DNA of 64,000 nt from an uncultured archaeon (GTDB lineage Archaea > Thermoplasmatota > Penumbrarchaeia > JASLWR01). Made by a program: the position numbers and the translations under genes. Below the pieces are notes generated by a model. That model was not told the origin of the DNA, did not search any database, and saw nothing but the letters and a program-made list of their open reading frames with translations. Shown here one piece after another: positions 36,407 through 62,265 of the stretch (the stretch's first letter is position 1; the number at the start of each line of letters is the position of its first letter). The stretch covers positions 1 through 64,000 of the forward strand of contig CAYFHS010000006.1 in the NCBI GenBank assembly GCA_964342815.1. The letters run 5' to 3'.

Positions 36407-36551
36407 TAAAGGTGACCCATCCTGGCTCCTGTAGGTACACAAGTACCGAAGGAGCAGGAGCATACTAATGCTCTGGAGCCCGTAGATTTCATCTTGAAAT
36501 TGAGGGATCAGGGCAATCTCTGATTGTCCAGAGTGAAACGGGCTCACCAAA
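36407..36551 (+). repeat. Hairpin cluster with two GTAG-stem-GA modules (REP-like)
   Basis: cct-gta-ggtac-acaa-gtacc-ga-agg; gagcat-acta-atgctc; ccc-gta-gatttca-tct-tgaaatt-ga-ggg; gggcaatc-tct-gattgtcc; closed by ggtga-ccc...ggg-c-tcacc. Confidence 0.65.
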
Positions 36552-36581
36552 CTTGTCAAGTTGTGACTTTACTTGACAAGA
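36551..36581. promoter_or_regulatory. Pair of palindromic ACTTGWCAAG boxes 20 bp apart (putative operator)
   Basis: acttgtcaag (36551-60) and acttgacaag (36571-80), about 75 bp upstream of the ATG at 36655. Confidence 0.5.
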
Positions 36582-45373: not shown

Positions 45374-45555
45374 GCTGAAGTGTATGTCGAATTTACTGAG
45401 CTAATTACTTTCATAATAATAATGAATAAATGGCTTTAGATTCATTAAACCTTGCTTTTTTTATCATATAGGAAATACAGACCATCCAGTCGATTTGTAC
45501 TTTATTTAGGCAATCAAGTATTTGCGATAACGCAGGAGTGGAACTCTGCTAAGTC

Positions 45556-45827
45556 GCCAATTTCCTTTGGAATTTGGCTCCCCGAGGGAGCCCATCCCGA
45601 AGGGATATATTTGGGGGGGATGCCCACTTCGTTCCGCTAAATCAGAGATTTAGCTGCACCCTCGGTTTTGCGAACAAAACCTACGGGTGGCCCCGCTTTC
45701 CCGCAGGAATCCCATCTGGGATTCCGAGGGTGCTCACCTTGTTACGATGCATCAGAGATACATCTGCTTCCTCGGGAGTAAACTCCCTACGGATGCAGGC
45801 GTATCTTCGATGCGCCGTGTCATCGTA
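45556..45827. repeat. Dense cloverleaf hairpin cluster containing two GTAG-stem-GA modules on the minus strand and an inverted GCAG module on the plus strand
   Basis: At least 8 stems, e.g. ggctccc-cga-gggagcc, gctaaatc-aga-gatttagc, ggttttg-cgaa-caaaacc, ggaatccc-atct-gggattcc, gggag-taaa-ctccc, ggcgtatc-ttc-gatgcgcc. Confidence 0.7.
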
Positions 45828-45909
45828 GAAAAGTGGTTTTTCATTGCTCTTTTTTGACACCTATCAGTAACATTATTATATGTATAAAATCCTTGTACAC
45901 TAGATAACT

Positions 45910-49735: not shown

Positions 49736-49930
49736 CGTGTAAAGCCGTCCCATTCTGGTTCAACTTTACCAAGAAGTCAGTCCAAATGTTCCTGACTTTA
49801 CGTGTAAAGCCGTCCCTTTTTGGTACGTCTTTACCAATAAGTCTGTCCAAATGTGCCTGACTTTACGTGTAAAGCCGTCCCATTCTGGCACGTCTTTACC
49901 AAGAAGTCAGTCCAAATGTTCCTGACTTTA
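49736..49930. repeat. Intergenic tandem repeat, 3 x 65 bp
   Basis: Units 49736-49800, 49801-49865 and 49866-49930 (cgtgtaaagccgtccc...tttaccaagaagtcagtccaaatgttcctgacttta), with a few substitutions each. Confidence 0.95.
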
Positions 49931-50015
49931 CTCATGAACTGCCCCTCGATCCTTTTCAACATGCTTGTCAAACTGCCGGATCCCATGGGAAATCCGTACA
50001 GGAATATGAACATTA

Positions 50016-51260: not shown

Positions 51261-52597
51261 TCAAACGCACCTCCTGCGGATTTATTTTCCTCAAGCATCT
51301 TCATTATACATTCGGCGGCTGTCTTGCCGTCCTGCACCGCCTGAACGATAAGAGCCGGTCCCCTTGCGGCATCCCCTCCGACGAATATCCTTTTATGGGT
51401 CGTTGAAACTCCATCATCGCCGGTCTTTACTAGGCCGTTTGGCAGATTTTCGACCAACTCGGAAAGCCCCTTGTTGCCCTCCTCGGACCTCATACCGATA
51501 GCCTTGACAAAAAAATCCACATTCAGACGGTATTCGGTCCCGGGAACGGTCACGAGATTCGCCGCAGAATGATCATCAGGGTTCTTCCAGTCTGTCTCGC
51601 AGCCCTTAAGACCGGTTAGCCTGCCGTCCTCGCCTATCAGCTCCGTGACAATACTCTGAGTGCGCAACGTAATGTTGTGGGAAAGGGCCAAATCGAGATC
51701 CTCCTCGTCTGCAGGCATCTCCCGGAGGCTGCGGCGGTAAATGACATAAACCTTGTTAGCGCCCAGGGTTGCACAAGTAGTGGCCGCGTCCATGGCAACG
51801 GAACCGCCTCCCACCACCGCAACGTTCTTGCCACGTATCTTTGATCCCAGTTCGACGTTCCTTCCCGATCTCATGCCCTCAAGGAACTTCTGCGAATCGG
51901 TAACGTTCACAAGATCGCTTCCCGGGATGTCCAATCGCGCAGGATTCCAAGTGCCTATTCCCATGAAGACGGCTTCGAATCCTTCCGAGAGGAGCCTGTC
52001 GGCCTCCCCCCTCTCGATCCTGCTTCTGGTTTTCAATTCCACTCCCAGGGTAAGAACGTCCTCAAGTTCACGTTCCACGAATTCCGTGTTCATGCGAAAT
52101 TCCGGCACGCCGTACCTTAGGACACCTCCCGCCTTCTCCCTCCCCTCGAATATAGTAATGCCGTACCCGTTCTTGGCCAGCTCGGCAGCACAGGCGAGGC
52201 CAGCAGGGCCGGAGCCGATGACTGCAATTTGTCCCTTCCCAGATCCCTTTTTCTTAATAGCATCAAATCCGGTCTCCCAGCCATATTCCACCAGGAACCT
52301 CTGGATCTTGCCGATTTCAATGGGACGGTCTATACCGGTGGCGCTGCACCCTTTCATACATAGTCTTTCCGTAGGACAGAGTGCGCCGCATATCCCTCCG
52401 AGTATGTTGTTGTTCTTTATGGTCCTTACTGCTCCCTTTATGTTCTTGAGCTTCAGTTTTCTAATGAATGTGCCCGGGTCCGTACCCGCAGGGCAGTCCC
52501 GGCTGCAGGGCGGCTCGTGGCAGTTCAGGCACCGGGACGCTTCGGAGATCGCTTGAAGAACACCATATGCCTTCTTATTACGTTCCAACCCGTTCAT
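51257..52597 (-). CDS. preT: Dihydropyrimidine dehydrogenase subunit PreT (GltD-like)
   Basis: EASRCLNC...CPAG, CGALCP..LC, GSGPAG, GGGSVAMD, GGD; overlaps the preA start. Confidence 0.9.
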   Translation of the reverse strand: MNGLERNKKAYGVLQAISEASRCLNCHEPPCSRDCPAGTDPGTFIRKLKLKNIKGAVRTIKNNNILGGICGALCPTERLCMKGCSATGIDRPIEIGKIQRFLVEYGWETGFDAIKKKGSGKGQIAVIGSGPAGLACAAELAKNGYGITIFEGREKAGGVLRYGVPEFRMNTEFVERELEDVLTLGVELKTRSRIERGEADRLLSEGFEAVFMGIGTWNPARLDIPGSDLVNVTDSQKFLEGMRSGRNVELGSKIRGKNVAVVGGGSVAMDAATTCATLGANKVYVIYRRSLREMPADEEDLDLALSHNITLRTQSIVTELIGEDGRLTGLKGCETDWKNPDDHSAANLVTVPGTEYRLNVDFFVKAIGMRSEEGNKGLSELVENLPNGLVKTGDDGVSTTHKRIFVGGDAARGPALIVQAVQDGKTAAECIMKMLEENKSAGGAFE

Positions 52598-52599
52598 AT

Positions 52600-53928
52600 C
52601 TAACCCTCCATCACCCTGAAAGCGTCATCCATAATCTCAAGGGATCTGTCTATCTGATCCATGGTCAATACCAATGGCGGCTGTATTCGGATAACATTTG
52701 CCAAAAGTCCCCCTAGTCCCAGAAGTAATCCGTTGTCCTTGCAAATTTCCATGAACTTCTTTGCTTCGGCCGTCCCGGGCGTCTTTTTCTCACGATCGCT
52801 AACCAGCTCAAACCCGATCATGAGTCCTTTTCCCCTGATATCACCGATCAATGCATGTTCCTCCATCATTTCATTGAGGCGCCGCTTGTAATAATTGCCC
52901 TTGGCCAGGGCTCCTTCCTGAAGGTTTTCCTTCTCTATTATCTCAAGATTGGAGAGCCCTGCTACCATGGCCAGCGGATTTCCGCCGAAGGTGGAGAACA
53001 GGTCTTTGGGCATGAGACAGTCGGATATTTCTTCGGAGGTAATAAGTGCCCCCATTGCAAAACCCGAACCAATGCCTTTTGCCATAGTCATCATGTCCGG
53101 TTTAACCCCCCAGTTCTCGATCCCCCAGAAATGCTTTCCGGTTCTTCCGAAACCGGTCTGTACCTCATCGCTAATAAAGAGCCCGTCGTATTTATGGACG
53201 ATCTCAGCCAGTATTGGAAAGAAATCCGGTACCGGCTCCGTAATACCCCCCACGCCCTGAAGTGGCTCGGCCAGCAGGGCCGCGACCCTCTTTGGCGTCT
53301 GACACCTTATTACCTTATCGGCGAACCACGCACATTCCATATCACACGTTTCGGGGTCCTTTCCGAAGTCACACCTGTAACAGTAACAGTTCGGCGTTCC
53401 TATGGTACCGGTGGCGTAGGTCATGTTTTGCCGCCAGGTGCCCTGGTTGGTAAGGCTCATGGCCATAAGCGTCCTCCCGTGAAAAGCTTCCAGCAGGGAG
53501 ACCACAAAATTGCAGTTGGTGTATTTTTTAGCAAGATGCAGTGCCGCTTCGTTCGCTTCGCTGCCCGAATTAACGAAAAAACATTTCTCTAAGCCTTCGG
53601 GGGAAATGGAAGCCAGTTTCTTGGCATATAGAGCCATGGGTATGGTAGGATAAAGCGTAGTGGTGTGCATCAAAAGGTCGAGTTGTTTTTTCAGGGCTTT
53701 GGTCATCGTGGGATGGCAGTGCCCCGAGTGAACGGTGCAGACACCTGCGAAAAGATCGATGTATGATTTACCTTCGCAGTCGAAGAGGATCGCTCCCTCA
53801 CCCTTGACGAATAATTTTGGTTCAGCATAGTAATGACCCACTGCGGGAACAAGGTGTTTTTTCTCTATTTCCAGTATGTCTTCTGTGGAGAATTTGCTTA
53901 AATTGAAAAGGTCTTCAAATTCACTCAT
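52600..53928 (-). CDS. Class III aminotransferase, AGXT2-like (probable beta-alanine aminotransferase)
   Basis: SGSEANE, FHGRT, DEVQTGFGRTG, TMAKG, STFGGNP; located in the pyrimidine operon. Confidence 0.85.
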   Translation of the reverse strand: MSEFEDLFNLSKFSTEDILEIEKKHLVPAVGHYYAEPKLFVKGEGAILFDCEGKSYIDLFAGVCTVHSGHCHPTMTKALKKQLDLLMHTTTLYPTIPMALYAKKLASISPEGLEKCFFVNSGSEANEAALHLAKKYTNCNFVVSLLEAFHGRTLMAMSLTNQGTWRQNMTYATGTIGTPNCYCYRCDFGKDPETCDMECAWFADKVIRCQTPKRVAALLAEPLQGVGGITEPVPDFFPILAEIVHKYDGLFISDEVQTGFGRTGKHFWGIENWGVKPDMMTMAKGIGSGFAMGALITSEEISDCLMPKDLFSTFGGNPLAMVAGLSNLEIIEKENLQEGALAKGNYYKRRLNEMMEEHALIGDIRGKGLMIGFELVSDREKKTPGTAEAKKFMEICKDNGLLLGLGGLLANVIRIQPPLVLTMDQIDRSLEIMDDAFRVMEG

Positions 53929-53983
53929 GATTATTTCACCTCACATATGTGGTAATTTATTTGCCCCTGGGAACCGTTGAAGA

Positions 53984-54853
53984 TCAGAGTTCTAAGAGGT
54001 CGTCGTACATTTCCGGCCGTCTGTCCCTGAAGAACTGCCATATGTTTCGCACCTCGTCGATCATGTCGAAATCCAGAGCGGCTGCAATGATCTCATCCTT
54101 GTCTCTGCTTCCTTCAGCAACAATCTGGCCTCGGGGGTCGCAGAAATAACTGGTACCGTAGAATTCACCGATGTTCCATGGTGCTTCAAATCCCACTCTG
54201 TTTATGGCACCGACGAAATACCCGTTGGCCACAGCATGGGCAGGCTGTTCCAGTTTCCAAAGATACTCGGAAAGTCCGGCAACTGTAGCAGAGGGGTTGA
54301 AAATAATCTCCGCTCCGTTCAATGCCAGTGCCCTTGCTCCTTCAGGGAAATGACGGTCGTAGCAGATGTATACCCCTACGTCAGCATATTCGGTCTCGAA
54401 CACTGGATACCCAAAATTCCCAGGTCGGAAATAATACTTTTCGAAAAATCCAGGCAGTACATGTGGTATGTGTGTCTTTCGATATTTTCCAAGGTAGGTT
54501 CCGTCGGCATCGATAACCGCGGCGGTATTATAATAGAAACCTGACATTTCCTTTTCATAAATAGGAACTATGAGGACCATGTGGTGCTTCTCTGCTAGAT
54601 CCATCATGGCTTCCGTGGTGGGACCGTCGGGTATCGGTTCTGCCATGTCATACCATTTTGGTCTCTGTTCGGCGGCGAAATAGGGCCCGTTGAACAGTTC
54701 CTGGAGACATAGTATCTTCACGCCCTTGGATGCGGCTTCTCCTATCAATTTCACATGCTTTTCCATCATGTAGCTCTTTATCTCGTCTACGGGAAGGTCG
54801 GTAGAAATATCGGCCTTGGCCTGTATCAATCCACATTTTACTATTCTTGACAT
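53984..54853 (-). CDS. Nitrilase-fold beta-ureidopropionase
   Basis: LQELF, KYRKTHIP, ICYDRHFPEGAR (E-K-C triad); probable start ATG 54853 (MSRIVKCGLIQ). Confidence 0.88.
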   Translation of the reverse strand: MSRIVKCGLIQAKADISTDLPVDEIKSYMMEKHVKLIGEAASKGVKILCLQELFNGPYFAAEQRPKWYDMAEPIPDGPTTEAMMDLAEKHHMVLIVPIYEKEMSGFYYNTAAVIDADGTYLGKYRKTHIPHVLPGFFEKYYFRPGNFGYPVFETEYADVGVYICYDRHFPEGARALALNGAEIIFNPSATVAGLSEYLWKLEQPAHAVANGYFVGAINRVGFEAPWNIGEFYGTSYFCDPRGQIVAEGSRDKDEIIAAALDFDMIDEVRNIWQFFRDRRPEMYDDLLEL

Positions 54854-54999
54854 GTTATTCACCATTTTATATATATTCGGCAATGTCGATATTGATGGAA
54901 ATATGCCAATCTTATTTAAATTATTAATATATCATATACTTACTTGGACAAATTTCATACGGTATTGTTGAATCCAATGTTAAAGGCAGGGAGCTTCTG

Positions 55000-55788
55000 A
55001 TGGATTACGCGGAAAAAATCCGAAAAGCCATTGAATGGATCGTCGGATCGAACCGTCTTGTGATATTCACCGGCGCAGGGGTAAGTACGGAGTCTGGCCT
55101 CCCGGATTACCGCGGTCCCCATGGGGTATGGACCAGAAGGGACAAGGGATTGGCTCCGCCGAAGTCCAAAAACATGGATGAGGTCCATCCCAATCGGACC
55201 CATTATTCCCTGGTCGAGCTTTTGGGATTGGGGAAACTCAATTTTCTCATATCCCAGAACGTGGACAACCTGCATCTTGCTTCCGGAATACCCCCGGATA
55301 TGATCGCCGAGCTGCATGGAAATCACGCGTTGATGAAGTGCATGGATTGCGACCATCGCCTATCTTTCAGCAAAGCAGGATGGGATAAAGGTACCTGGGG
55401 ACAGGGGTATCGTACGCAAAAATCACGCTTGGGACAACCCCAATGTCCGAGGTGCAGCGGCCGGCTAATATCCAGTGTGGTGAATTTTGGAGACCCCATG
55501 CCTGAAAAAGAGATTTCCATATCAATGGAAAGGTCGAGAACCTGCGACGTCTTTATTGTCATTGGCTCTTCTCTAGTTGTTAGTCCGGCAGCTAATATGC
55601 CTGCACTGGCTCTCGAGAACGGCGCGAAATTGATCATTATTAATCAGGGTGAGACTCCTTACGACCACTTGGCCGAATTAAGGTTCTGGGAGAACGCCGG
55701 CTCTGTGATGGAAGATATAGTCAATGGATTGAAGAGAATTGTTCAGCAAAAGAGCAAATCCTATAATGTCAATAGAGCGAACAAGTAA
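55000..55788 (+). CDS. cobB: NAD-dependent deacylase (sirtuin), SIRT6/7-like sequence pattern
   Basis: GAGVSTESGLPDYRGPHGVWT, SQNVDNLH, ELHGN, two CxxC, GSSL, IIN. Confidence 0.9.
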   Translation: MDYAEKIRKAIEWIVGSNRLVIFTGAGVSTESGLPDYRGPHGVWTRRDKGLAPPKSKNMDEVHPNRTHYSLVELLGLGKLNFLISQNVDNLHLASGIPPDMIAELHGNHALMKCMDCDHRLSFSKAGWDKGTWGQGYRTQKSRLGQPQCPRCSGRLISSVVNFGDPMPEKEISISMERSRTCDVFIVIGSSLVVSPAANMPALALENGAKLIIINQGETPYDHLAELRFWENAGSVMEDIVNGLKRIVQQKSKSYNVNRANK

Positions 55789-55795
55789 AGAAAAT

Positions 55796-55875
55796 AAAGA
55801 GGGCCGATGACCCCCAAGGCAAACATCGGCCCGATAGAAAAATAATAATATCAAGCATACAGAGGAAGAGGGCCT
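55796..55875 (-). repeat. Left copy of an inverted structured element
   Basis: gggccgatg-acccccaaggcaaa-catcggccc plus an A-rich linker and agagga; homologous to the reverse complement of 57055-57129. Confidence 0.65.
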
Positions 55876-56256
55876 GGTGCCCTCAGGGTCGGTGTGAGCC
55901 GACCTTATTTGTGCGAATAATATTGGTGAAACACTATTTGACGAGGCAGATGTTCCGCTAGAGCCACATCAGTCTTGAAATCTATTAGGCTAAATGAAAA
56001 GGCAGTTCCCCATCAAATCCTTTTCGAGGTTCGCCTGTTTGACAATATCCAAGAGAAAAGCACTTTGGCGTACCCAGATATGAATATATCGTACATAGCA
56101 GAATGAAATGAGTGGATGGCTGTTCAACGACAGACTAGTGAATTCCTTTTGACACTGTGGCGAGTTTATTTGAATACCACGTTTTACGAAATCAATAGTT
56201 ATAGTCCTAAGAATTTAAGTAACATAATCCAATATAAAGAAATTGAGGGGTATATT

Positions 56257-56838
56257 ATGTCACTCGTTACAATAGTATTTATTATTTTGTTGCTTATATT
56301 AAATGCTTGTCTAATAGGATTAATAATCTATTTTTGGAAAAATTTATCAGTCATAAAAGCAGAAAATAAAACACTTAAGGATAACCAATGGGAAATAAAG
56401 CAAGAATTTGAAAAAAATAAACTGATCGAAATTGAAAGAATAAAACAAACATGGGATGCTCAAAAACAAAATGAAATTGCGAACATAGTTGCACAGACAA
56501 GACAAGATACAAGCAATCGTTCAAGAGCAGCATTAAAAGGTAGAATTGGAGAACAAATGGCTCCACTAATGACAGAATTTTATTCGAAATACGAGTTATC
56601 TGATGCAAGGTTTATTGGAGAACCAATAGATTATATAATCTTTAAGAATTTATCTAAATACAAGTCCGAGAGAGAAAACAAAATTCCCCCGGACCAACGT
56701 TCACAAATTGAGATTATAATTGCTGACGTAAAGACTGGTAAAGCATATCTTAGTCAAGAACAAAGAAGAATTCGAGATGCTATATTATGTAAAAGAGTAA
56801 ATTGGGATATAATTCGTTTAACAATACCAGACGATTAA
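56257..56838 (+). CDS. Membrane-anchored Holliday-junction-resolvase-like PD-(D/E)xK endonuclease (Endonuc_Holl-type)
   Basis: TM plus coiled coil; SR...GRIGEQMAP, DARFIGEPIDYIIF, DVKTG..LSQEQRRI. GAGGGG RBS before ATG 56257. AT-rich (16/60 and 18/60 GC in two sampled lines). Confidence 0.85.
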   Translation: MSLVTIVFIILLLILNACLIGLIIYFWKNLSVIKAENKTLKDNQWEIKQEFEKNKLIEIERIKQTWDAQKQNEIANIVAQTRQDTSNRSRAALKGRIGEQMAPLMTEFYSKYELSDARFIGEPIDYIIFKNLSKYKSERENKIPPDQRSQIEIIIADVKTGKAYLSQEQRRIRDAILCKRVNWDIIRLTIPDD

Positions 56839-57054
56839 AATGTGAGTACAGTTAACTAACAATTATTTGCCCATTGACTTCACGTAACTCTCTTGGCTTC
56901 TGAAGTTTCCGAGGGGCCGTTGCATCTCGGATTCAACGGAGTAAAAAGGGCACACTTGCCGATACTGAAAACTTCCTTTCTGGAACGTTTTTGTATTTTC
57001 TCACAGCTATGCTCGAAAATAACACAGGGGCAATGCCCCGGAGCGGAGTTAGCG

Positions 57055-57129
57055 CCACCCCTCCTCTATCTTTTCGATATTATTTTTGGGTCAGGCCTGC
57101 GTTGGCCTTAGGGGCCGCAGGCCCTTTTT
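57055..57129 (+). repeat. Right copy of an inverted structured element, ending in hairpin plus T5
   Basis: ggcctgcg-ttggccttaggggc-cgcaggcc-c-ttttt. Confidence 0.65.
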
Positions 57130-57300
57130 GGATAAGAAGAAAGAGATTATAAAAACAAAAGCGGTGAAAGTAATCCACCAATATATTTATCCATAAGATG
57201 TATTATAGTTGTCAATATTTCCGTTAGCTTTATTATAGAAAAAAGACGATGTTATTCAAAGTACAAATTTCAAGTTTTATACCTCTAGAACGGTGATCAC

Positions 57301-60300
57301 ATGTTCGGTTCTCTGAAAAGGTCTCTTAATGTCTTTATACTTGTCCTTATGATAACCAGCAGTTCTTATCATTTTTCCTTCCCGACCGATGATGGAGATA
57401 CTTTTTATAACGGTAAAATACGCAGGGTCGACTTAGATATCGATACCTCCCAGGAATCAACTAGGGCTGAATTGTCTCAGATACTACTAACCGAAACTTT
57501 CGAATCCAATTCTTTTGCAACAAATGGATGGGCCAAGGAGGACGGCAGCGGCGGGGTCGAGATAGTCACCACCAACCCGAAGAATGGTACACGACACCTG
57601 CATTTCAAAGGAAACAGCTATAATACACACGGCTATATTTCAAAGGTTTTGAACCTGTCCGCTTATTCCCAAGCAGTCCTGGAATTCGAAGCCTACGGGG
57701 GGCCTAGCAGCGGTGGAGGTATAGACGGACCGGGAGGAAGCGAGGACATTCTCTGGGTGGATTTTCGTTCGTCGGCAACCAGCCAATGGACCACTTTAAA
57801 CTACTGGCATGGAGCTAACTGCAGCCTAAACCAGTACCGCTTCGAAAGAGTGACCCTACCTTCTTCGTCGTTTACGAACACCAGTGCAATTCGATTTAGA
57901 AACAAGATAAGTGTGAATAGCGAGTATTATCGCATTGACGATATTAAGGTAAAAGCAGCACCGCAGTTGGAAATTAATACTGATAACATCGCAGCTACTC
58001 CATCCTCGATATTGAGATACAATGGGACTATTAATATAAGCGGATCGTTCACGGATGACGTTGGTTTCGGGATATTGGATTATAAAATATCAATCGGAAT
58101 AAGGGATCCGGAGGGAAAAGAGACTCTATTGATAGATAACAAAACAAGCGGGAACGATTCTCTGAATATTCAACAACAGTCGCCAGGTGAATTTAATTTT
58201 TTCTACATCTGGTCCCCTTCGGAGAATTTTCTTTTCGGTAAATACGATATCAATATTAAGGTCTACCACAGACTCGGATGGAAATGTCTGCTTAGTTATG
58301 ACGATAATGATTGTAACTTCACACTTTTATCCGTAGCTCCTTACTTTCGGAATGAGTCTATCTTTTTCGAAAAAGAACCTCTAAACGCTCTGGACCCGGA
58401 TGGGATTCCAATTACAATAAAATTCCATGATGTTGATCGCCAATCCCCCGATGACTTTTTCATGAATCTGACCCTACGAGGAACGGAGAACAATATTACT
58501 ATATTCAAAAGTGCAACAAACGTGTCCGGGCTGAATATTTCAATGACGGAAAACGGGACCTACGAAGCAGCCCACGTATGGTATCCGGAAAATCCGGATG
58601 ATTTGGTCGAGGGGAGATACAGCGTTGACCTTGGTTTGTGGGAGGAAGGCGGACCGTTGGTAGAGATGGAAATCTTTAATATCGAAAGAAACGTCACTCT
58701 GGTAAAGAGATATGTTCCAGGGATAATATCACTGGCGTGTCAACCGGACACTATCAATATGAGCGGTTCCGGGAAAACCACGATACAGGGTGAGTTTTTC
58801 GATAAGGACACGAGCTCCATGATGGATTTCGAAATATCACTGAAGATAAGGGATGGAGATGATAAGGAGATAATTCTTACAGATGGGGCAAAGAGCGGCG
58901 AGAATGGTGTAATCATCGAGAAATCGGGAATATTCAGGTGGCGTATTACTTTTGCATATGATCCCCCGGTGACCCTTCGTCCGGGACCCTATGATCTTTA
59001 TATGGATGTATTCGACGGTGAATCAACCCTCACTAGTGAAGGGTTTAATAACAATACCGATGAGCTGTTTATTTACAACAACACCAGTCCAATAATCCAT
59101 GAGATCACACTCAGCAGATCGGTAGTGAACAAATACGGCAATGATTCCGCAAGGCTGAGCATCATCTTTTCAGATCCAGATGGCGAATCCATGGGTAATT
59201 TCACCATCAATCTGACCCTAATTGACTCGGAGGGCAATTTATATACACTGGTGAACGGTGAAAAGGAAGGCCCCAATGCAAGCATATCGTATCTGGCCCC
59301 CATAGACGGTCACAGTTACGTATTCACGTTTGATATCGACCCAGATACTTCGTTTACGGAGGGCCCGTACGGACTGTCTTTCAATGTCCGGGACAAATGG
59401 GGTGGTATTGATGGATTGGCTTACGGTGAGAACGACCTGAACCTTACTTTCTTCTACAATTATATACCGTCCCCTCCATCGAAAATTTGGCCCAACAGCA
59501 CCACCGATAAGCTTCCATTGATAAGCTGGTGGGGGGCATTGGACCTGGAAACACCCCACGAAGAGCTCGAGTATTCTATAAGGATCGGAACCGCCGGAGT
59601 TGACGATAATATCCTGGCCTGGCACGATGTAGGCCAGCGAACGACCTATCAGGTAATGGAAGAACTTGAGGTAGGTTTTTACCATATCCAGGTAAAGAGT
59701 TATGACGGTGATTTTTACTCCGAAGTTTCCAGCTCCATCATGACCATTGCCCCTGATGGCAATCACCCTCCAGGGGTGCCTGGTGCCATCAGTCCGCTTT
59801 ACACCGTCCGTCGAGATCCCACCATCACCTGGGATGCCAGTATTGACCGGGATGTCAACGATCTTATCGAGTACTTCATAAGCATTGGAACGGACTGGCA
59901 TGCCAGTGATATCATAAAGAGCACACCCACCAGTGTGAACACGATCTACCAGCTACCGTTCATGCTGTCCTACGGCACATATTACGTTCAGGTTATGGCC
60001 ACCGACGGATACGAATTTTCCCCTGTCAGGGAACAGCGGATGATCATCTTCGATCCGTCAGATAACATAGCTCCGTTCCCGCCCAAATCTATTATGCCGG
60101 ATGTGACCCGGAACCCATACCCATTGATCCAGTGGGAAGGCGCCGTGGACCTGAACGGCGACGACCTTCTTTTCTGGTTCAGGATAGGCAGCGGCCCCGG
60201 CCAGGGGGATATTATACCTTGGAGTAGCACGGGGAAGAGCAATTATTTCCAGATCGAGAAGTCAATGGCCCCCGGGGATTATTATGTCCAGGTAAAATGT

Positions 60301-62265
60301 TATGACAGCCAGGCATTCTCAAGGATATTCGAAGCAGTTATCCGGGTGAAAACGGAAAGAGAAATCATCGGTCCCACGGAGATCATACCTCGTATCTCAT
60401 CGGATCCCACGCCTCTCATAAACTGGAGCGGAGCACATTACATGAACAGTCCCGGTACAAATGAAAACTTTTCTTACCTTATCCGTTTAAGCAGCGAGCC
60501 TTCTCTCGGTGATCTGCTCCCGTGGAGTCTGGTTTCGAATACTACGAGTTATCAGGTGGAAAAGCCCTTAAGACGCGGCGATACTGTTTATGTGGAGATC
60601 AAGGCATTCGATGGGCACCAGTATTCCGAAGTTTCAATATTCGATCTGTGGATCGGTGATTTTTCTCTGACGGTTGGGTTCAACGAAACGAACTATATCT
60701 ATAAGATAACGGGAGAGGCCAATCAGACCATCCGAGGATTCATCAAGAACAGCGGCCGGGATGACGTTACCGTGGAACTGGGTTTGGGCGGTACTTTTGC
60801 GAAATACGTCAAAGTACCAGCAGAGCCGCTTCATATCAAAAGCGGGGAGATGGTGAGCGTTCTTCTGACGGTGAACATACCCGATTCGGCCAATGTGAAC
60901 CGTGACTCGGTGATCGTTCTAATAGCCACTTCGACGGATGGTGCTGCCGCTCAGTCCGAGCTTTTGGGATTCGCAAGAGAGAAAGCGGAGGATGAAACAT
61001 GGAGTGAGGCACTGGGGATGAACCTGAACCTAATTCTCGGTTCTATAGTGCTGTTATTGGCTTTTTTCATTCTCCTTATATTGATAGTAAAACGTTCAAA
61101 GCGAGGTAAACGTGAACGATTCGAAGTAATGGAGGTGTCTAAAAGCTCCGAGGCCGTGGTAATCGATGATCTCGTACAGACCAGCATCTATTCCACCCAA
61201 CGCTTAAGCGATCGGCGTACCTTCGAAGCACTGGACAAGACGCTTCTCAAAATGTTCAAGGCTCATGGTGTAAGAACGAAATCCAGAGTGAAAGGCCAAA
61301 AGGGCAGGGCATTGGGTGATGGTAGCAAGGGTAAGAAGACTCCAGCACTTCCACCTCCATCTCCCGGTGCGCTAGAGCCGGGAGAAGTTAAGAAAATGCC
61401 GCCACCTCCAGGAGAACGTGTAGAGTTCCTTCCGCCGGGGGAGGACGTCCCGGCTGAGGAGCTTCCTCCCGCTCCGGAAATGGAATACATTCCGCCTGAG
61501 GGGTCCGGGAAGACACCTGTGGCCATTGGGGATGCCATAGTTGATGCAGAGGAAATTACCGAGAAAATACTTGAGTCCGATGAGATATCGGAACAACCGG
61601 AAGCGGATGCCGTTGCGGTTTCGTTAGAAGATGACGAGAACGTCGATGAAATGCCTGAGGGATTTGCGGAAACGCCCGAAGATGTATCAGTTGCAGTTGA
61701 GGGAGATGGTGAAGAGCCACTCTACGACTTGTCGGAAGATGCCGGGTCACTCCGGCCTACAGGAGATGATGATGATTCGGAACTGTCCGAAGTATTATCA
61801 CAGGATATGGATGAGGATTCGGAACTGTCCGAAGTATTATCACAGGATATGGATGAGGATTCGGGAATATCAGATGCAGTGACGGATGAGCCAAACAAGG
61901 GTGATCCGGCGGAACCGGATGAGCCACTCGAGTCGGCGGAACCGGATGAGTCTCATCCTGAAGAATCCGTCATTCAACCCGATTCCCCCATTGGAGCCGA
62001 GCCGTCAGGGGAGGTGGCTCCCGAACCTAGATCCGAATCACCGGAGCCGGTAGAGCAGCCAAAAGAGCCCGAAACTCCGCCTTCGGAAGCTGATATGTCA
62101 GTACCATCCGAAGGGGATCGCCCAACCACGGATGATCCGACGCCCCCGAAGTCCCTGGAGGAGGCTCCCGAGGCGGAAAAGGAAGATAGCGCAACTGATG
62201 TCGGTGACGATTCCAGCGCCCTTGATGATATAATGGATATACTGGGTATCGATGAGGATGAGTAA
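57301..62265 (+). CDS. Giant surface protein (1654 aa): jelly-roll tip, Ig stalk, FN3-like repeats, TM, Pro/acidic cytoplasmic tail
   Basis: Signal peptide; repeated P..P..I.P...P.I.W...D....L.Y.I.IG; TM LILGSIVLLLAFFILLILIV. Confidence 0.88.
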   Translation: MFGSLKRSLNVFILVLMITSSSYHFSFPTDDGDTFYNGKIRRVDLDIDTSQESTRAELSQILLTETFESNSFATNGWAKEDGSGGVEIVTTNPKNGTRHLHFKGNSYNTHGYISKVLNLSAYSQAVLEFEAYGGPSSGGGIDGPGGSEDILWVDFRSSATSQWTTLNYWHGANCSLNQYRFERVTLPSSSFTNTSAIRFRNKISVNSEYYRIDDIKVKAAPQLEINTDNIAATPSSILRYNGTINISGSFTDDVGFGILDYKISIGIRDPEGKETLLIDNKTSGNDSLNIQQQSPGEFNFFYIWSPSENFLFGKYDINIKVYHRLGWKCLLSYDDNDCNFTLLSVAPYFRNESIFFEKEPLNALDPDGIPITIKFHDVDRQSPDDFFMNLTLRGTENNITIFKSATNVSGLNISMTENGTYEAAHVWYPENPDDLVEGRYSVDLGLWEEGGPLVEMEIFNIERNVTLVKRYVPGIISLACQPDTINMSGSGKTTIQGEFFDKDTSSMMDFEISLKIRDGDDKEIILTDGAKSGENGVIIEKSGIFRWRITFAYDPPVTLRPGPYDLYMDVFDGESTLTSEGFNNNTDELFIYNNTSPIIHEITLSRSVVNKYGNDSARLSIIFSDPDGESMGNFTINLTLIDSEGNLYTLVNGEKEGPNASISYLAPIDGHSYVFTFDIDPDTSFTEGPYGLSFNVRDKWGGIDGLAYGENDLNLTFFYNYIPSPPSKIWPNSTTDKLPLISWWGALDLETPHEELEYSIRIGTAGVDDNILAWHDVGQRTTYQVMEELEVGFYHIQVKSYDGDFYSEVSSSIMTIAPDGNHPPGVPGAISPLYTVRRDPTITWDASIDRDVNDLIEYFISIGTDWHASDIIKSTPTSVNTIYQLPFMLSYGTYYVQVMATDGYEFSPVREQRMIIFDPSDNIAPFPPKSIMPDVTRNPYPLIQWEGAVDLNGDDLLFWFRIGSGPGQGDIIPWSSTGKSNYFQIEKSMAPGDYYVQVKCYDSQAFSRIFEAVIRVKTEREIIGPTEIIPRISSDPTPLINWSGAHYMNSPGTNENFSYLIRLSSEPSLGDLLPWSLVSNTTSYQVEKPLRRGDTVYVEIKAFDGHQYSEVSIFDLWIGDFSLTVGFNETNYIYKITGEANQTIRGFIKNSGRDDVTVELGLGGTFAKYVKVPAEPLHIKSGEMVSVLLTVNIPDSANVNRDSVIVLIATSTDGAAAQSELLGFAREKAEDETWSEALGMNLNLILGSIVLLLAFFILLILIVKRSKRGKRERFEVMEVSKSSEAVVIDDLVQTSIYSTQRLSDRRTFEALDKTLLKMFKAHGVRTKSRVKGQKGRALGDGSKGKKTPALPPPSPGALEPGEVKKMPPPPGERVEFLPPGEDVPAEELPPAPEMEYIPPEGSGKTPVAIGDAIVDAEEITEKILESDEISEQPEADAVAVSLEDDENVDEMPEGFAETPEDVSVAVEGDGEEPLYDLSEDAGSLRPTGDDDDSELSEVLSQDMDEDSELSEVLSQDMDEDSGISDAVTDEPNKGDPAEPDEPLESAEPDESHPEESVIQPDSPIGAEPSGEVAPEPRSESPEPVEQPKEPETPPSEADMSVPSEGDRPTTDDPTPPKSLEEAPEAEKEDSATDVGDDSSALDDIMDILGIDEDE
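61774..61864 (+). repeat. Exact 42-bp coding tandem duplication (DSELSEVLSQDMDE x2)
   Basis: 61774-61815 is identical to 61816-61857, followed by a partial third unit. Confidence 0.92.

What the first reader, a model, noticed from the sequence alone, without database searches (positions are those of the whole stretch)
55796..57129. AT-rich endonuclease gene bracketed by two inverted, covarying structured elements: a possible new mobile or invertible cassette
Seen: the reverse complement of 55796-55875 aligns with 57055-57129. Left(-): ccctcttcctct...gatattattattttt-ctatc-gggccGATG-tttgccttgggggt-CATCggccc-tcttt. Right(+): ccctcctct...gatattattttt-gggtc-aggccTGCG-ttggccttaggggc-CGCAggccc-ttttt. 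The 4-bp GATG/CATC to TGCG/CGCA swap is fully compensatory, the 14-nt loop is 11/14 identical, and a G-C to G-U change favours the outward-reading strands. Weaker similarity and the same hairpin order continue inward for about 100-170 nt. Between them is a ~28-30% GC (sampled) TM-anchored PD-(D/E)xK nuclease gene, against 37/60 GC in a sampled sirtuin line. Inference: structured recombination ends of a non-autonomous cassette, an invertible segment, or two copies of an unknown ncRNA. No transposase or exact target duplication was found.
Basis: partly seen in the sequence, partly recalled or inferred. Interest (0 to 1): 0.75.

Follow-up and report, generated by a model that had tools for sequence, protein, structure and literature searches.

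The report
Genome-wide hairpin repeats bracketing acquired nuclease
The two "ends" are copies of a hairpin repeat that occurs dozens of times in this marine Thermoplasmatota archaeon and two relatives; here a pair of them brackets a foreign, AT-rich nuclease gene, and the same bracketing recurs around five other single genes.

Summary
The inverted similarity is real for the outer 52-80 nt, where 0 of 500 shuffles score as well. It does not extend further inward (251 of 500 shuffles).

Both arms belong to a lineage-restricted family. Each unit is a T-rich tract, a 9-bp G+C stem with a variable loop, and a TCTTT tail. A covariance model finds at least 42 copies in this genome, 18 in the sister species and 16 in a sister genus. 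It finds none in 28 other genomes of the class.

The arms are not each other's closest relatives in the family, and no transposase or target duplication was found.

The gene between them is a PF10107 Holliday-resolvase-like nuclease. Its G+C is 30%, the 0.4th percentile of this genome, and it was found in none of 30 relatives searched. In the sister species the sirtuin gene and the large downstream gene are about 240 nt apart, and the whole 1.4 kb is missing.

Family members sit preferentially as outward-facing pairs:
- six tight doublets, 27-73 nt apart;
- six pairs that each enclose one gene.

My best reading is a REP/REPIN-like mosaic repeat system in an archaeon, with a horizontally acquired gene lying inside one doublet. 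A mobile cassette is not excluded. An invertible segment is unsupported. What moves the repeats is unknown.

The parts
55790..55856 (-). Left arm. Family unit 'hairpin C': T-rich tract (55833-55856), 9-bp stem with a 14-nt loop (55801-55832), and a TCTTT-type tail that runs into the sirtuin stop codon.
   Evidence: Model R1 scores it 64.3 bits, E 1e-11. Fold. Sequence.
55868..55904 (-). Accessory hairpins of the left arm: B (55868-55884) and A (55887-55904, a GGTCGG...CCGACC stem). These precede the T-rich tract in most family copies.
   Evidence: Fold (z -3.6 on this strand). The same A/B order is seen upstream of many copies. The best match elsewhere is the doublet at C2:86875.
56257..56838 (+). 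Nuclease gene of 193 aa: N-terminal hydrophobic helix, a coiled-coil-like stretch, then a PD-(D/E)xK-type Endonuc_Holl domain. A GAGGGG motif lies 8 nt before the ATG. A longer frame opens at 56116.
   Evidence: PF10107, E 3.5e-25. G+C 0.30, the 0.4th percentile of this genome. It is the only PF10107 match among 31 genomes.
56896..56962 (+). Degenerate copy of 'module X', the second and more abundant structured repeat of this lineage.
   Evidence: Model R2 gives a weak match of 19.5 bits, E 0.0017.
57027..57064 (+). Accessory hairpins of the right arm: GGGGCAATGCCCC (57027-57039) and an imperfect GGAGCGG...CCCCTCC hairpin (57040-57064).
   Evidence: Sequence and fold. The fold is not better than shuffles on its own (z 0.1).
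57069..57135 (+). Right arm. Family unit 'hairpin C': T-rich tract (57069-57092), stem-loop (57093-57124), then TTTTT and a GGATAAGAAG tail.
   Evidence: Model R1 scores it 62.9 bits, E 2e-11. Fold.
55789..57186 (.). Segment absent from the sister species. It holds both arms and the nuclease gene. In G001 about 95 nt of unrelated sequence take its place.
   Evidence: blastn aligns window 52000-55742 with L019 2464-6201 (85%) and 57187-59462 with L019 6335-8609 (78%). Model R1 finds nothing in L019.

Best explanation
The two elements are ordinary members of a lineage-specific family of intergenic palindromic repeats, comparable to bacterial REP/REPIN/BIME elements. The family belongs to a small clade of marine Thermoplasmatota.

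Each unit is directional. It reads, in order: accessory hairpins A and B, a T-rich tract of about 25 nt, a 9-bp G+C stem (consensus GGGCCUGCG...CGCAGGCCC) whose loop comes from a small repertoire, and a TCTTT tail.

Units occur in three arrangements:
- as singletons;
- as tight back-to-back doublets;
- as doublets with one gene between the arms.

The finding is of the third kind. A horizontally acquired, AT-rich PF10107 nuclease gene lies between two outward-facing units, and the whole 1.4 kb is an indel relative to the sister species.

Shown:
- family membership;
- restriction to this lineage;
- selection on the stem;
- presence/absence turnover between sister species;
- the foreign character of the gene;
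- recurrence of the gene-bracketing pair.

Inferred:
- The units spread as selfish hairpin-forming DNA through an enzyme acting in trans that I could not identify.
- The interior of a doublet is a preferred landing place for incoming DNA.
- Because the T-tracts and hairpins face outward, they probably also stop or stabilise transcripts leaving the enclosed gene.
For: FAMILY SIZE AND SPREAD
- The exact pattern GRCCTGCG-N8-16-CGCAGGYC occurs 28 times in G000, 3 times in G001 and 10 times in G003. The reversed control pattern occurs 0 times.
- Model R1 finds 42 copies in G000, 18 in G001, 16 in G003, and 0 in G002 and 27 other genomes of the class. The order holds only these four genomes.
- Both window arms score mid-table in that search.

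STEM SELECTION
- 99.2% of cells pair. Four of the nine pairs show compensatory changes. No shuffle of 500 reaches the observed covariation score.

PLACEMENT
- 34 of 35 short copies are intergenic. All four combinations of neighbouring-gene orientation are about equally common, so the copies are not simply gene terminators.

TURNOVER
- Hairpins are present in one sister species and absent in the other at syntenic sites.
- The loop class differs at an orthologous site (G001 C29 against G000 C57) and between 91%-identical paralogous flanks (C10 against C19).

PAIRING
- All six tight doublets are in the (-)(+) arrangement, as are the six pairs taken to enclose one gene; in one of those six an extra (-) unit lies between the gene and the (+) arm.
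- About 0.6-1 genes flanked on both sides are expected by chance, giving P(>=6) of at most 5e-4.

THE GENE IS FOREIGN
- Its G+C is at the 0.4th percentile.
- PF10107 occurs in 1 of 31 genomes.
- The best homologues are only 54-59% identical, lie in unrelated contigs, and have no R1 match or comparable inverted repeats beside them.

EMPTY SITE
- The sister species has the flanking genes adjacent, without the segment.
Against: - No enzyme that could move the units was found in this genome. There is no Y1/RAYT transposase, TnpB or reverse transcriptase. The only IS110 transposase sits on a 1.6-kb, roughly 62% G+C contig that looks like contamination. The genome is 88.9% complete, so absence is not proven.
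- No target-site duplication or clean insertion boundary was seen at any empty/filled pair.
- The GTAG tag typical of bacterial REPs is present only in the E-type variant and not in the two arms here.
- Mobility is inferred from presence/absence between species. It was not observed directly.
- RNA-level function cannot be excluded.
Confidence: 0.7

Rival explanations
1. Mobile gene cassette. The outward-facing hairpin units are recombination ends, and single genes travel between them, as in integron cassettes or genes captured between two MITEs. The tight doublets would be the empty form.
For: - The whole unit (arm, gene, arm) is missing from the sister species.
- Six single genes are bracketed in the same (-)(+) arrangement, well above chance.
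- Two of those genes are paralogous FGE-sulfatase genes whose similarity starts at the outer edge of the left hairpin.
- Two of the six enclosed genes (the nuclease and the NosD-like gene) are strongly AT-rich, and gene content at the nuclease and C10 sites differs from the sister species.
- Six doublets 27-73 nt apart look like empty cassettes.
Against: - The left and right arms are not each other's closest relatives (ranks 5 and 11 of 26).
- Similarity between the two FGE cassettes stops about 270 nt before the right hairpin.
- Nuclease homologues in other organisms carry no such ends.
- There is no second copy of this cassette, no target duplication and no dedicated recombinase beside it.
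- Contigs from four other studies show only the filled, co-linear form.
Confidence: 0.17
2. Functional RNA or transcription signal. Each unit is a small RNA gene, or an intrinsic-terminator or RNA-stabiliser module that the host uses to insulate genes.
For: - T-tracts lie before and after a strong stem.
- An inner G-U pair favours the outward strand.
- The stem covaries.
- The loop sequence TTTCTTACGT is identical across two genera.
- Around enclosed genes the units always point outward, which would stop transcripts leaving the gene.
Against: - Over all copies, orientation relative to the upstream and downstream genes is random: 13 of 28 copies are co-directional with the upstream gene.
- Copies are gained or lost between sister species at syntenic sites.
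- Loops switch class at the same site.
- No Rfam family matches.
Confidence: 0.1
3. REPtron analogue. The resolvase-like nuclease is the enzyme that cuts and spreads the palindromes. It would sit between two of them as RAYT transposases sit between REPs.
For: - The topology (a single-copy nuclease gene between inverted family members) mirrors REPtrons as described in PMC3733652.
- From general knowledge, Hjc-type nucleases recognise four-way or cruciform DNA.
Against: - G001 and G003 carry 16-18 or more hairpin units and more than 100 module X copies, but have no PF10107 gene.
- Five unrelated genes are bracketed in the same way.
- The gene looks recently acquired.
- The predicted N-terminal membrane anchor does not fit a DNA-transposing enzyme well.
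Confidence: 0.03

Closest known systems
REP / REPIN / BIME elements of bacteria, with their RAYT transposases (PMC3116915, PMC3733652)
   Same: - Short G+C-rich imperfect palindromes present in dozens of intergenic copies.
- Sub-families that differ by compensatory stem changes.
- Inverted doublets with a short spacer, like REPINs.
- Mosaic combination with other small modules, like BIMEs.
- Restriction to a lineage.
- The E-type variant carries GTCGTAGACGA, which contains GTAG, just before the stem.
   Different: - The host is an archaeon.
- The two arms in the window lack the GTAG or CGTC tag.
- No RAYT was found in this genome. The Y1 transposases of the two relatives have unrelated end hairpins and no family copies beside them.
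- Doublets here often enclose a whole gene that is not a transposase.
- The units carry long T-rich leaders.
MITEs and palindrome-associated elements derived from IS200/IS605 in archaea
   Same: They are small, non-coding, hairpin-forming and inserted in intergenic DNA, and they show presence/absence between close relatives. Module X shows an internal 4-nt 'guide' complementary to its 5' flank and to its own 3' end. From general knowledge, this recalls how IS200/IS605 ends are recognised.
   Different: There are no terminal inverted repeats, no target duplication and no parent IS. G000 has no TnpA or TnpB.
Integron gene cassettes with attC sites
   Same: Single, often promoter-poor accessory genes are bounded by imperfect palindromes, and gene content varies between relatives.
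   Different: - attC sites lie in one orientation, one per cassette, in arrays next to an integrase gene.
- Here two inverted units bracket each gene and the sites are scattered over the genome.
- No integron integrase or array was seen. I did not check whether the four tyrosine recombinases lie next to any unit.
Repetitive hairpin-forming elements of organelle and giant-virus genomes (for example sponge mitochondria, PMC2800124; pithoviruses, PMC10664404)
   Same: Invasive families of G+C-rich hairpins fill intergenic DNA, and their mobilising enzyme is not known.
   Different: The hosts and sequences are unrelated. This is a resemblance in kind only. I saw only the titles and abstracts of these papers.

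Membership tests
REP/REPIN-like palindromic repeats | Short imperfect palindrome present in many intergenic copies in one genome | tested here: met
   28 exact-pattern copies and 42 model hits in G000. 34 of 35 short copies are intergenic.
REP/REPIN-like palindromic repeats | GTAG or CGTC tetranucleotide tag at one foot of the stem (PMC3733652) | tested here: inconclusive
   About 14 E-type copies carry GTCGTAGACGA before the stem. C-type copies, including both arms of the finding, have TC/GGGTC instead.
REP/REPIN-like palindromic repeats | Inverted doublets separated by a short spacer (REPIN) | tested here: met
   Six (-)(+) doublets with gaps of 27-73 nt.
REP/REPIN-like palindromic repeats | A cognate RAYT (Y1 transposase) gene flanked by the repeats | tested here: not met
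   PF01797 has no match in G000, which is 88.9% complete. The Y1 genes of G001 and G003 have no R1 or R2 match within 1.5 kb and carry different end hairpins.
MITE | Terminal inverted repeats plus a target-site duplication, with a related autonomous IS | tested here: not met
   No duplication is visible at empty/filled comparisons. There is no multi-copy coding repeat in the assembly.
Intrinsic-terminator-type gene signal | Hairpin plus U-tract placed downstream of genes in the sense orientation | tested here: not met
   Only 13 of 28 C-type copies are co-directional with the upstream gene, and all four orientation classes are about equal. The gene calls are my own crude ones.
Invertible DNA segment | Inverted repeats with an adjacent invertase, and both orientations present in the population | tested here: not met
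   There is no recombinase in 53000-60000. Contigs of four runs from four studies are co-linear with no joints, but these are low-depth contigs only.
Integron cassette | attC sites in one orientation, arrayed next to an intI gene | tested here: not met
   The units are inverted around each gene and scattered over many contigs. I did not test the intI subtype.
PF10107 Endonuc_Holl (the enclosed gene) | Match to the family profile above the curated cut-off | tested here: met
   89.1 bits against a cut-off of 23.8, covering profile positions 18-158 of 159. All 20 homologues found carry PF10107.
Known RNA families (Rfam 15) | Match at the gathering score | tested here: not met
   No match in the whole window. 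Only chance-level hits appear in 55600-57400. Module X loci also have none.

The most novel reading that the evidence does not exclude
This clade of marine Thermoplasmatota may carry an undescribed system for handling DNA at hairpins, in two layers.

(i) Outward-facing hairpin doublets could act as docking sites where single accessory genes are inserted or exchanged. That would be an integron-like cassette system without attC arrays.

(ii) A structured module of about 70 nt ('module X', more than 100 copies per genome) could insert itself into hairpin loops and into its own copies. Its targeting would use an internal 4-nt guide that is complementary both to the 5' flank and to the element's own 3' end. 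No known transposase, TnpB or reverse transcriptase was found in this genome.
Probability: 0.15. Interest if true: 0.8.

Novelty: new variant of a known kind. Interest (0 to 1): 0.5.

Why it matters
REP-like repeats and their doublets are well studied in bacteria, where a dedicated transposase explains them. In this archaeal lineage a comparable mosaic of structured repeats has expanded to hundreds of copies with no recognisable mobilising enzyme. Its doublets repeatedly enclose single accessory genes, among them a foreign nuclease.

If the doublets are landing pads or cassette ends, they would be a new route for gene gain in uncultured marine archaea.

If they are not, the practical lesson still holds: a striking 'covarying inverted pair' around a gene can simply be two members of a genome-wide family. 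The whole genome should be scanned before calling such a pair a transposon.

Tried and rejected
RNA AND PROTEIN FAMILY SEARCHES
- Rfam at gathering and at E-value thresholds on the window, the region and module X loci gave nothing credible.
- There are no tRNAs in the window.
- PADLOC and PHROGS gave nothing useful for the nuclease.

SEARCH FOR A MOBILISING ENZYME IN G000
- The Y1 transposase, TnpB and reverse-transcriptase profiles had no match.
- IS110 matched only contig C110, which is 1.6 kb and about 62% G+C against 45% for the genome. I treated it as contamination.
- There are four tyrosine recombinases. I did not check whether any lies next to a unit.
- The IS200-like elements of G001 and G003 were examined as possible drivers. 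Their end hairpins (CCAGNNCCTAAAGGNNCTGG) are unrelated, they have no copies in G000, and no R1 or R2 hits lie nearby. No link was shown.
- A self-megablast found no multi-copy coding repeats of 400 bp or more.

SEARCHES IN PUBLIC COLLECTIONS
- The search for related loci with the nuclease in genome contigs found no relative.
- Viral contigs have no exact hairpin. The nine pattern matches to module X are chance: only one scores, at 20 bits, in 71% G+C DNA.
- One metagenome contig (L095) carries both repeat types and is probably another relative.

SEQUENCING RUNS
- No RNA holder was listed.
- Laying contigs from four DNA runs showed no joints and no variants. Several bins had no cover, which proves nothing.

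LITERATURE
- I found nothing describing this family in Thermoplasmatota.

IDEAS CONSIDERED AND DROPPED
- A tRNA-like minihelix or anticodon-loop reading of the hairpin: the registers do not fit.
- Hammerhead, HDV or twister ribozyme readings of module X: the core motifs are absent.
- A group II class C intron: there is no reverse transcriptase and no intron domains.

Full report
WHAT IS AT THE COORDINATES

The sirtuin gene (55000-55788, PF02146) is followed by a 468-nt spacer. Next comes a 193-aa ORF (56257-56838), then a 462-nt spacer, then a 1654-aa ORF starting at 57301. The 193-aa ORF matches PF10107, the family of endonucleases related to the archaeal Holliday junction resolvase (E 3.5e-25). 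It begins with a hydrophobic helix. G+C falls to 0.24-0.35 across it.

The repeat finder reports the inverted arms 55796-55847 and 57078-57129. Both fold into a 9-bp G+C stem with a 14-nt loop.

A shuffle test separates two parts of the claim:
- The outer ~90 nt align far better than chance (score 34 against 15.8 +/- 2.4; 0 of 500 shuffles).
- Everything further inward does not (score 17 against 17.0; 251 of 500 shuffles).

The compensatory swap is real but covers three base pairs, not four.

THE ARMS BELONG TO A GENOME-WIDE FAMILY

The window is contig C6 of a 4.35-Mb, 116-contig, 88.9%-complete genome with 45% G+C. Short BLAST hits and pattern scans showed the same architecture on many contigs: a T-rich tract, then TC-GGRCC-TGCG-loop-CGCA-GGYCC, then TCTTT. 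It is usually preceded by two small hairpins, A (GGTCGG...CCGACC) and B (GRGGGC...GCCCYC).

Loops come from a small repertoire, including TTTCTTACGT, TTTGCCTGGGGGT, TTTGGCTGGAGCT and TGGCTTTTTTGC. A second flank type, which I call E, carries GTCGTAGACGA before a slightly longer stem.

On a 27-sequence alignment, 99.2% of stem cells pair and four of nine pairs change on both sides. No shuffled or slid control approaches this.

The covariance model R1 gives these counts:
- G000: 42 copies
- G001 (sister species): 18 copies
- G003 (sister genus): 16 copies
- G002 and 27 further genomes of the class: none

The order contains only these four genomes. The exact stem pattern gives 28, 3 and 10 copies in G000, G001 and G003, against 0 for the reversed control. 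The two arms of the finding score 64 and 63 bits, in the middle of the list.

G001 is recorded as a 'Thermoplasmatota archaeon' MAG. The window's protein occurs on TARA and other marine contigs.

THE FAMILY DOES NOT BEHAVE LIKE GENE TERMINATORS OR FIXED GENES

With a crude gene call, 34 of 35 short copies are intergenic. Their orientation relative to the neighbouring genes is evenly spread over all four classes.

Positions are not conserved between the sister species:
- A G001 copy lies in a 1.7-kb insertion relative to G000.
- A G000 copy next to a NosD-like gene is missing at the syntenic G001 site.
- One orthologous site keeps the stem but has a different loop.
- Two 91%-identical paralogous flanks carry loops of different classes.

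THE SEGMENT IS AN INDEL AND THE GENE IS FOREIGN

In G001 the aminotransferase, nitrilase-like and sirtuin genes and the large downstream gene are co-linear with the window at 78-85% identity. However, window 55789-57186 has no counterpart. About 95 nt of unrelated sequence join the flanks, and model R1 finds nothing there.

PF10107 is found in G000 alone among 31 genomes. The gene's G+C is at the 0.4th percentile of this genome.

The closest homologues are 54-59% identical. They lie in unrelated contigs with G+C of 28-55%, and no R1 match or comparable inverted repeat lies beside them. In two of the three contigs the homologue is also AT-richer than its surroundings.

Contigs from four other marine studies match the window letter for letter where covered, including across both outer junctions. 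They show no joints.

A RECURRENT ARRANGEMENT

Neighbouring family members are almost always back to back, with the T-rich sides facing inward and the TCTTT tails outward. There are six doublets separated by 27-73 nt that share central A/B hairpins. There are also six pairs that each enclose exactly one gene:
- the nuclease;
- a NosD/beta-helix protein (G+C 0.33);
- two paralogous FGE-sulfatase-like proteins;
- a PKD/FG-GAP giant protein;
- a VIT-VWA-HTH protein. Here a tight (-E)(+C) doublet forms the right boundary, so an extra (-) unit lies between the gene and the (+) arm.

Chance predicts about 0.6-1 genes flanked on both sides (P of at most 5e-4). It also predicts a one-in-four chance per pair of this particular orientation.

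Several results argue against a simple transposon:
- The two arms are not each other's nearest relatives (ranks 5 and 11 of 26).
- The FGE paralogues share sequence only from the outer edge of the left hairpin to just past the start codon.
- No target duplication is visible.
- No second copy of the nuclease cassette exists.

A SECOND, MORE ABUNDANT REPEAT IS INTERLEAVED

Long variants of hairpin C contain an insert of about 60 nt, which I call module X. Its invariant positions read CCGUAGG...CCGAGG...CAG...CG.A.

Hairpin b of the module covaries at 7 of its 8 pairs. The four bases after CCGAGG are complementary both to the four bases just upstream of the element and to its own last four bases.

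Model R2 finds at least 105 copies in G000, 119 in G001 and 129 in G003. It finds none in G002, none in 32 other genomes of the class, and one in G030.

Module X sits in the loops of hairpins A and C, in a 65-nt tandem unit, and inside other copies of itself, in both orientations. A weak, degenerate copy lies inside the finding at 56896-56962.

No Rfam family matches it. No reverse transcriptase, TnpB or Y1 transposase was found in G000. G001 and G003 do have IS200-like Y1 elements, but these have unrelated end hairpins and no family copies beside them. What moves either repeat remains unknown.

VERDICT

The pair is not a private set of transposon ends. It consists of two members of a lineage-restricted, REP/REPIN/BIME-like repeat system, arranged as an outward-facing doublet that holds a recently acquired nuclease gene.

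I put about 0.7 on this reading, about 0.17 on a true hairpin-bounded mobile cassette, about 0.1 on an RNA or terminator function as the primary role, and about 0.03 on the nuclease being the family's own enzyme.

The closest described systems are bacterial REP/REPIN/BIME elements (PMC3116915, PMC3733652). Membership fails on the RAYT criterion, and the GTAG tag is met only by the E-type variant. I therefore file it as a new variant of that kind rather than as a member.

Noticed in passing
window 45540-45830 (model hits 45611-45690(-) and 45721-45796(-)); also 36476-36554(+): A cluster of nested 'module X' copies in both orientations fills the spacer between two genes. Module X is a structured repeat of about 70 nt, with more than 100 copies per genome in G000, G001 and G003 and none in the other 33 class genomes searched except one copy in G030. 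An internal 4-nt segment is complementary to both its 5' flank and its 3' end. No Rfam match and no identified mobilising enzyme.
   Followed up: partly
window 49736-49931: Three tandem copies of a 65-nt unit (89% matches) containing a small hairpin. Related arrays lie on C1, C3, C17 and C54. Elsewhere (C2:218324, C3:68596) the same unit carries a module X insertion, so this array is the 'empty' form.
   Followed up: partly
L053:720-790 and 1055-1142; L054:650-890; L055:646-822 (G000 C4, C10, C19): Another conserved non-coding module of about 100-200 nt (reading ...GAGCAGGTGAGCGGGGGTGAGG...GGGGGCTTGGGATGGC...). It lies directly inside the left hairpin of three gene-bracketing pairs and has many 80-92% matches in G001 and G003. 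Its nature is unknown.
   Followed up: no
G000 contig C110 (1579 nt): This contig encodes an IS110-family transposase. Its base composition is very different from the genome (roughly 62% against 45% G+C) and it has no match elsewhere in the assembly. It is probably a binning contaminant.
   Followed up: partly
L084:1343-2108 (G001 C158) and L083:1254-2019 (G003 C1): An IS200-like element of about 770 bp (Y1 transposase of 163 aa), 82% identical between the two genera, with direct subterminal hairpins CCAGNNCCTAAAGGNNCTGGCGTT. At the syntenic place in G000 the homology stops at the element's edge, near the end of a contig.
   Followed up: partly
L021:1782-2702(-) (G001 C92): The sister species has its own AT-rich, membrane-anchored 306-aa gene with no Pfam match. 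It lies in a 1.7-kb insertion that ends in an E/A/B/C hairpin composite. G000 has nothing at that site.
   Followed up: partly
window 57301-62265, and 62428 onward (to C6:67599): Two consecutive giant ORFs of about 1650-1720 aa. The first has a long acidic, proline- and glutamate-rich C-terminal tail after a membrane-spanning stretch, and is probably a surface protein. Its ortholog in G001 is only about 78% identical in DNA.
   Followed up: no
L002:3264-3345(-) (G000 C3): A tRNA gene lies about 100 nt from a long hairpin C variant that carries module X. I did not test whether repeats cluster near tRNA genes.
   Followed up: no
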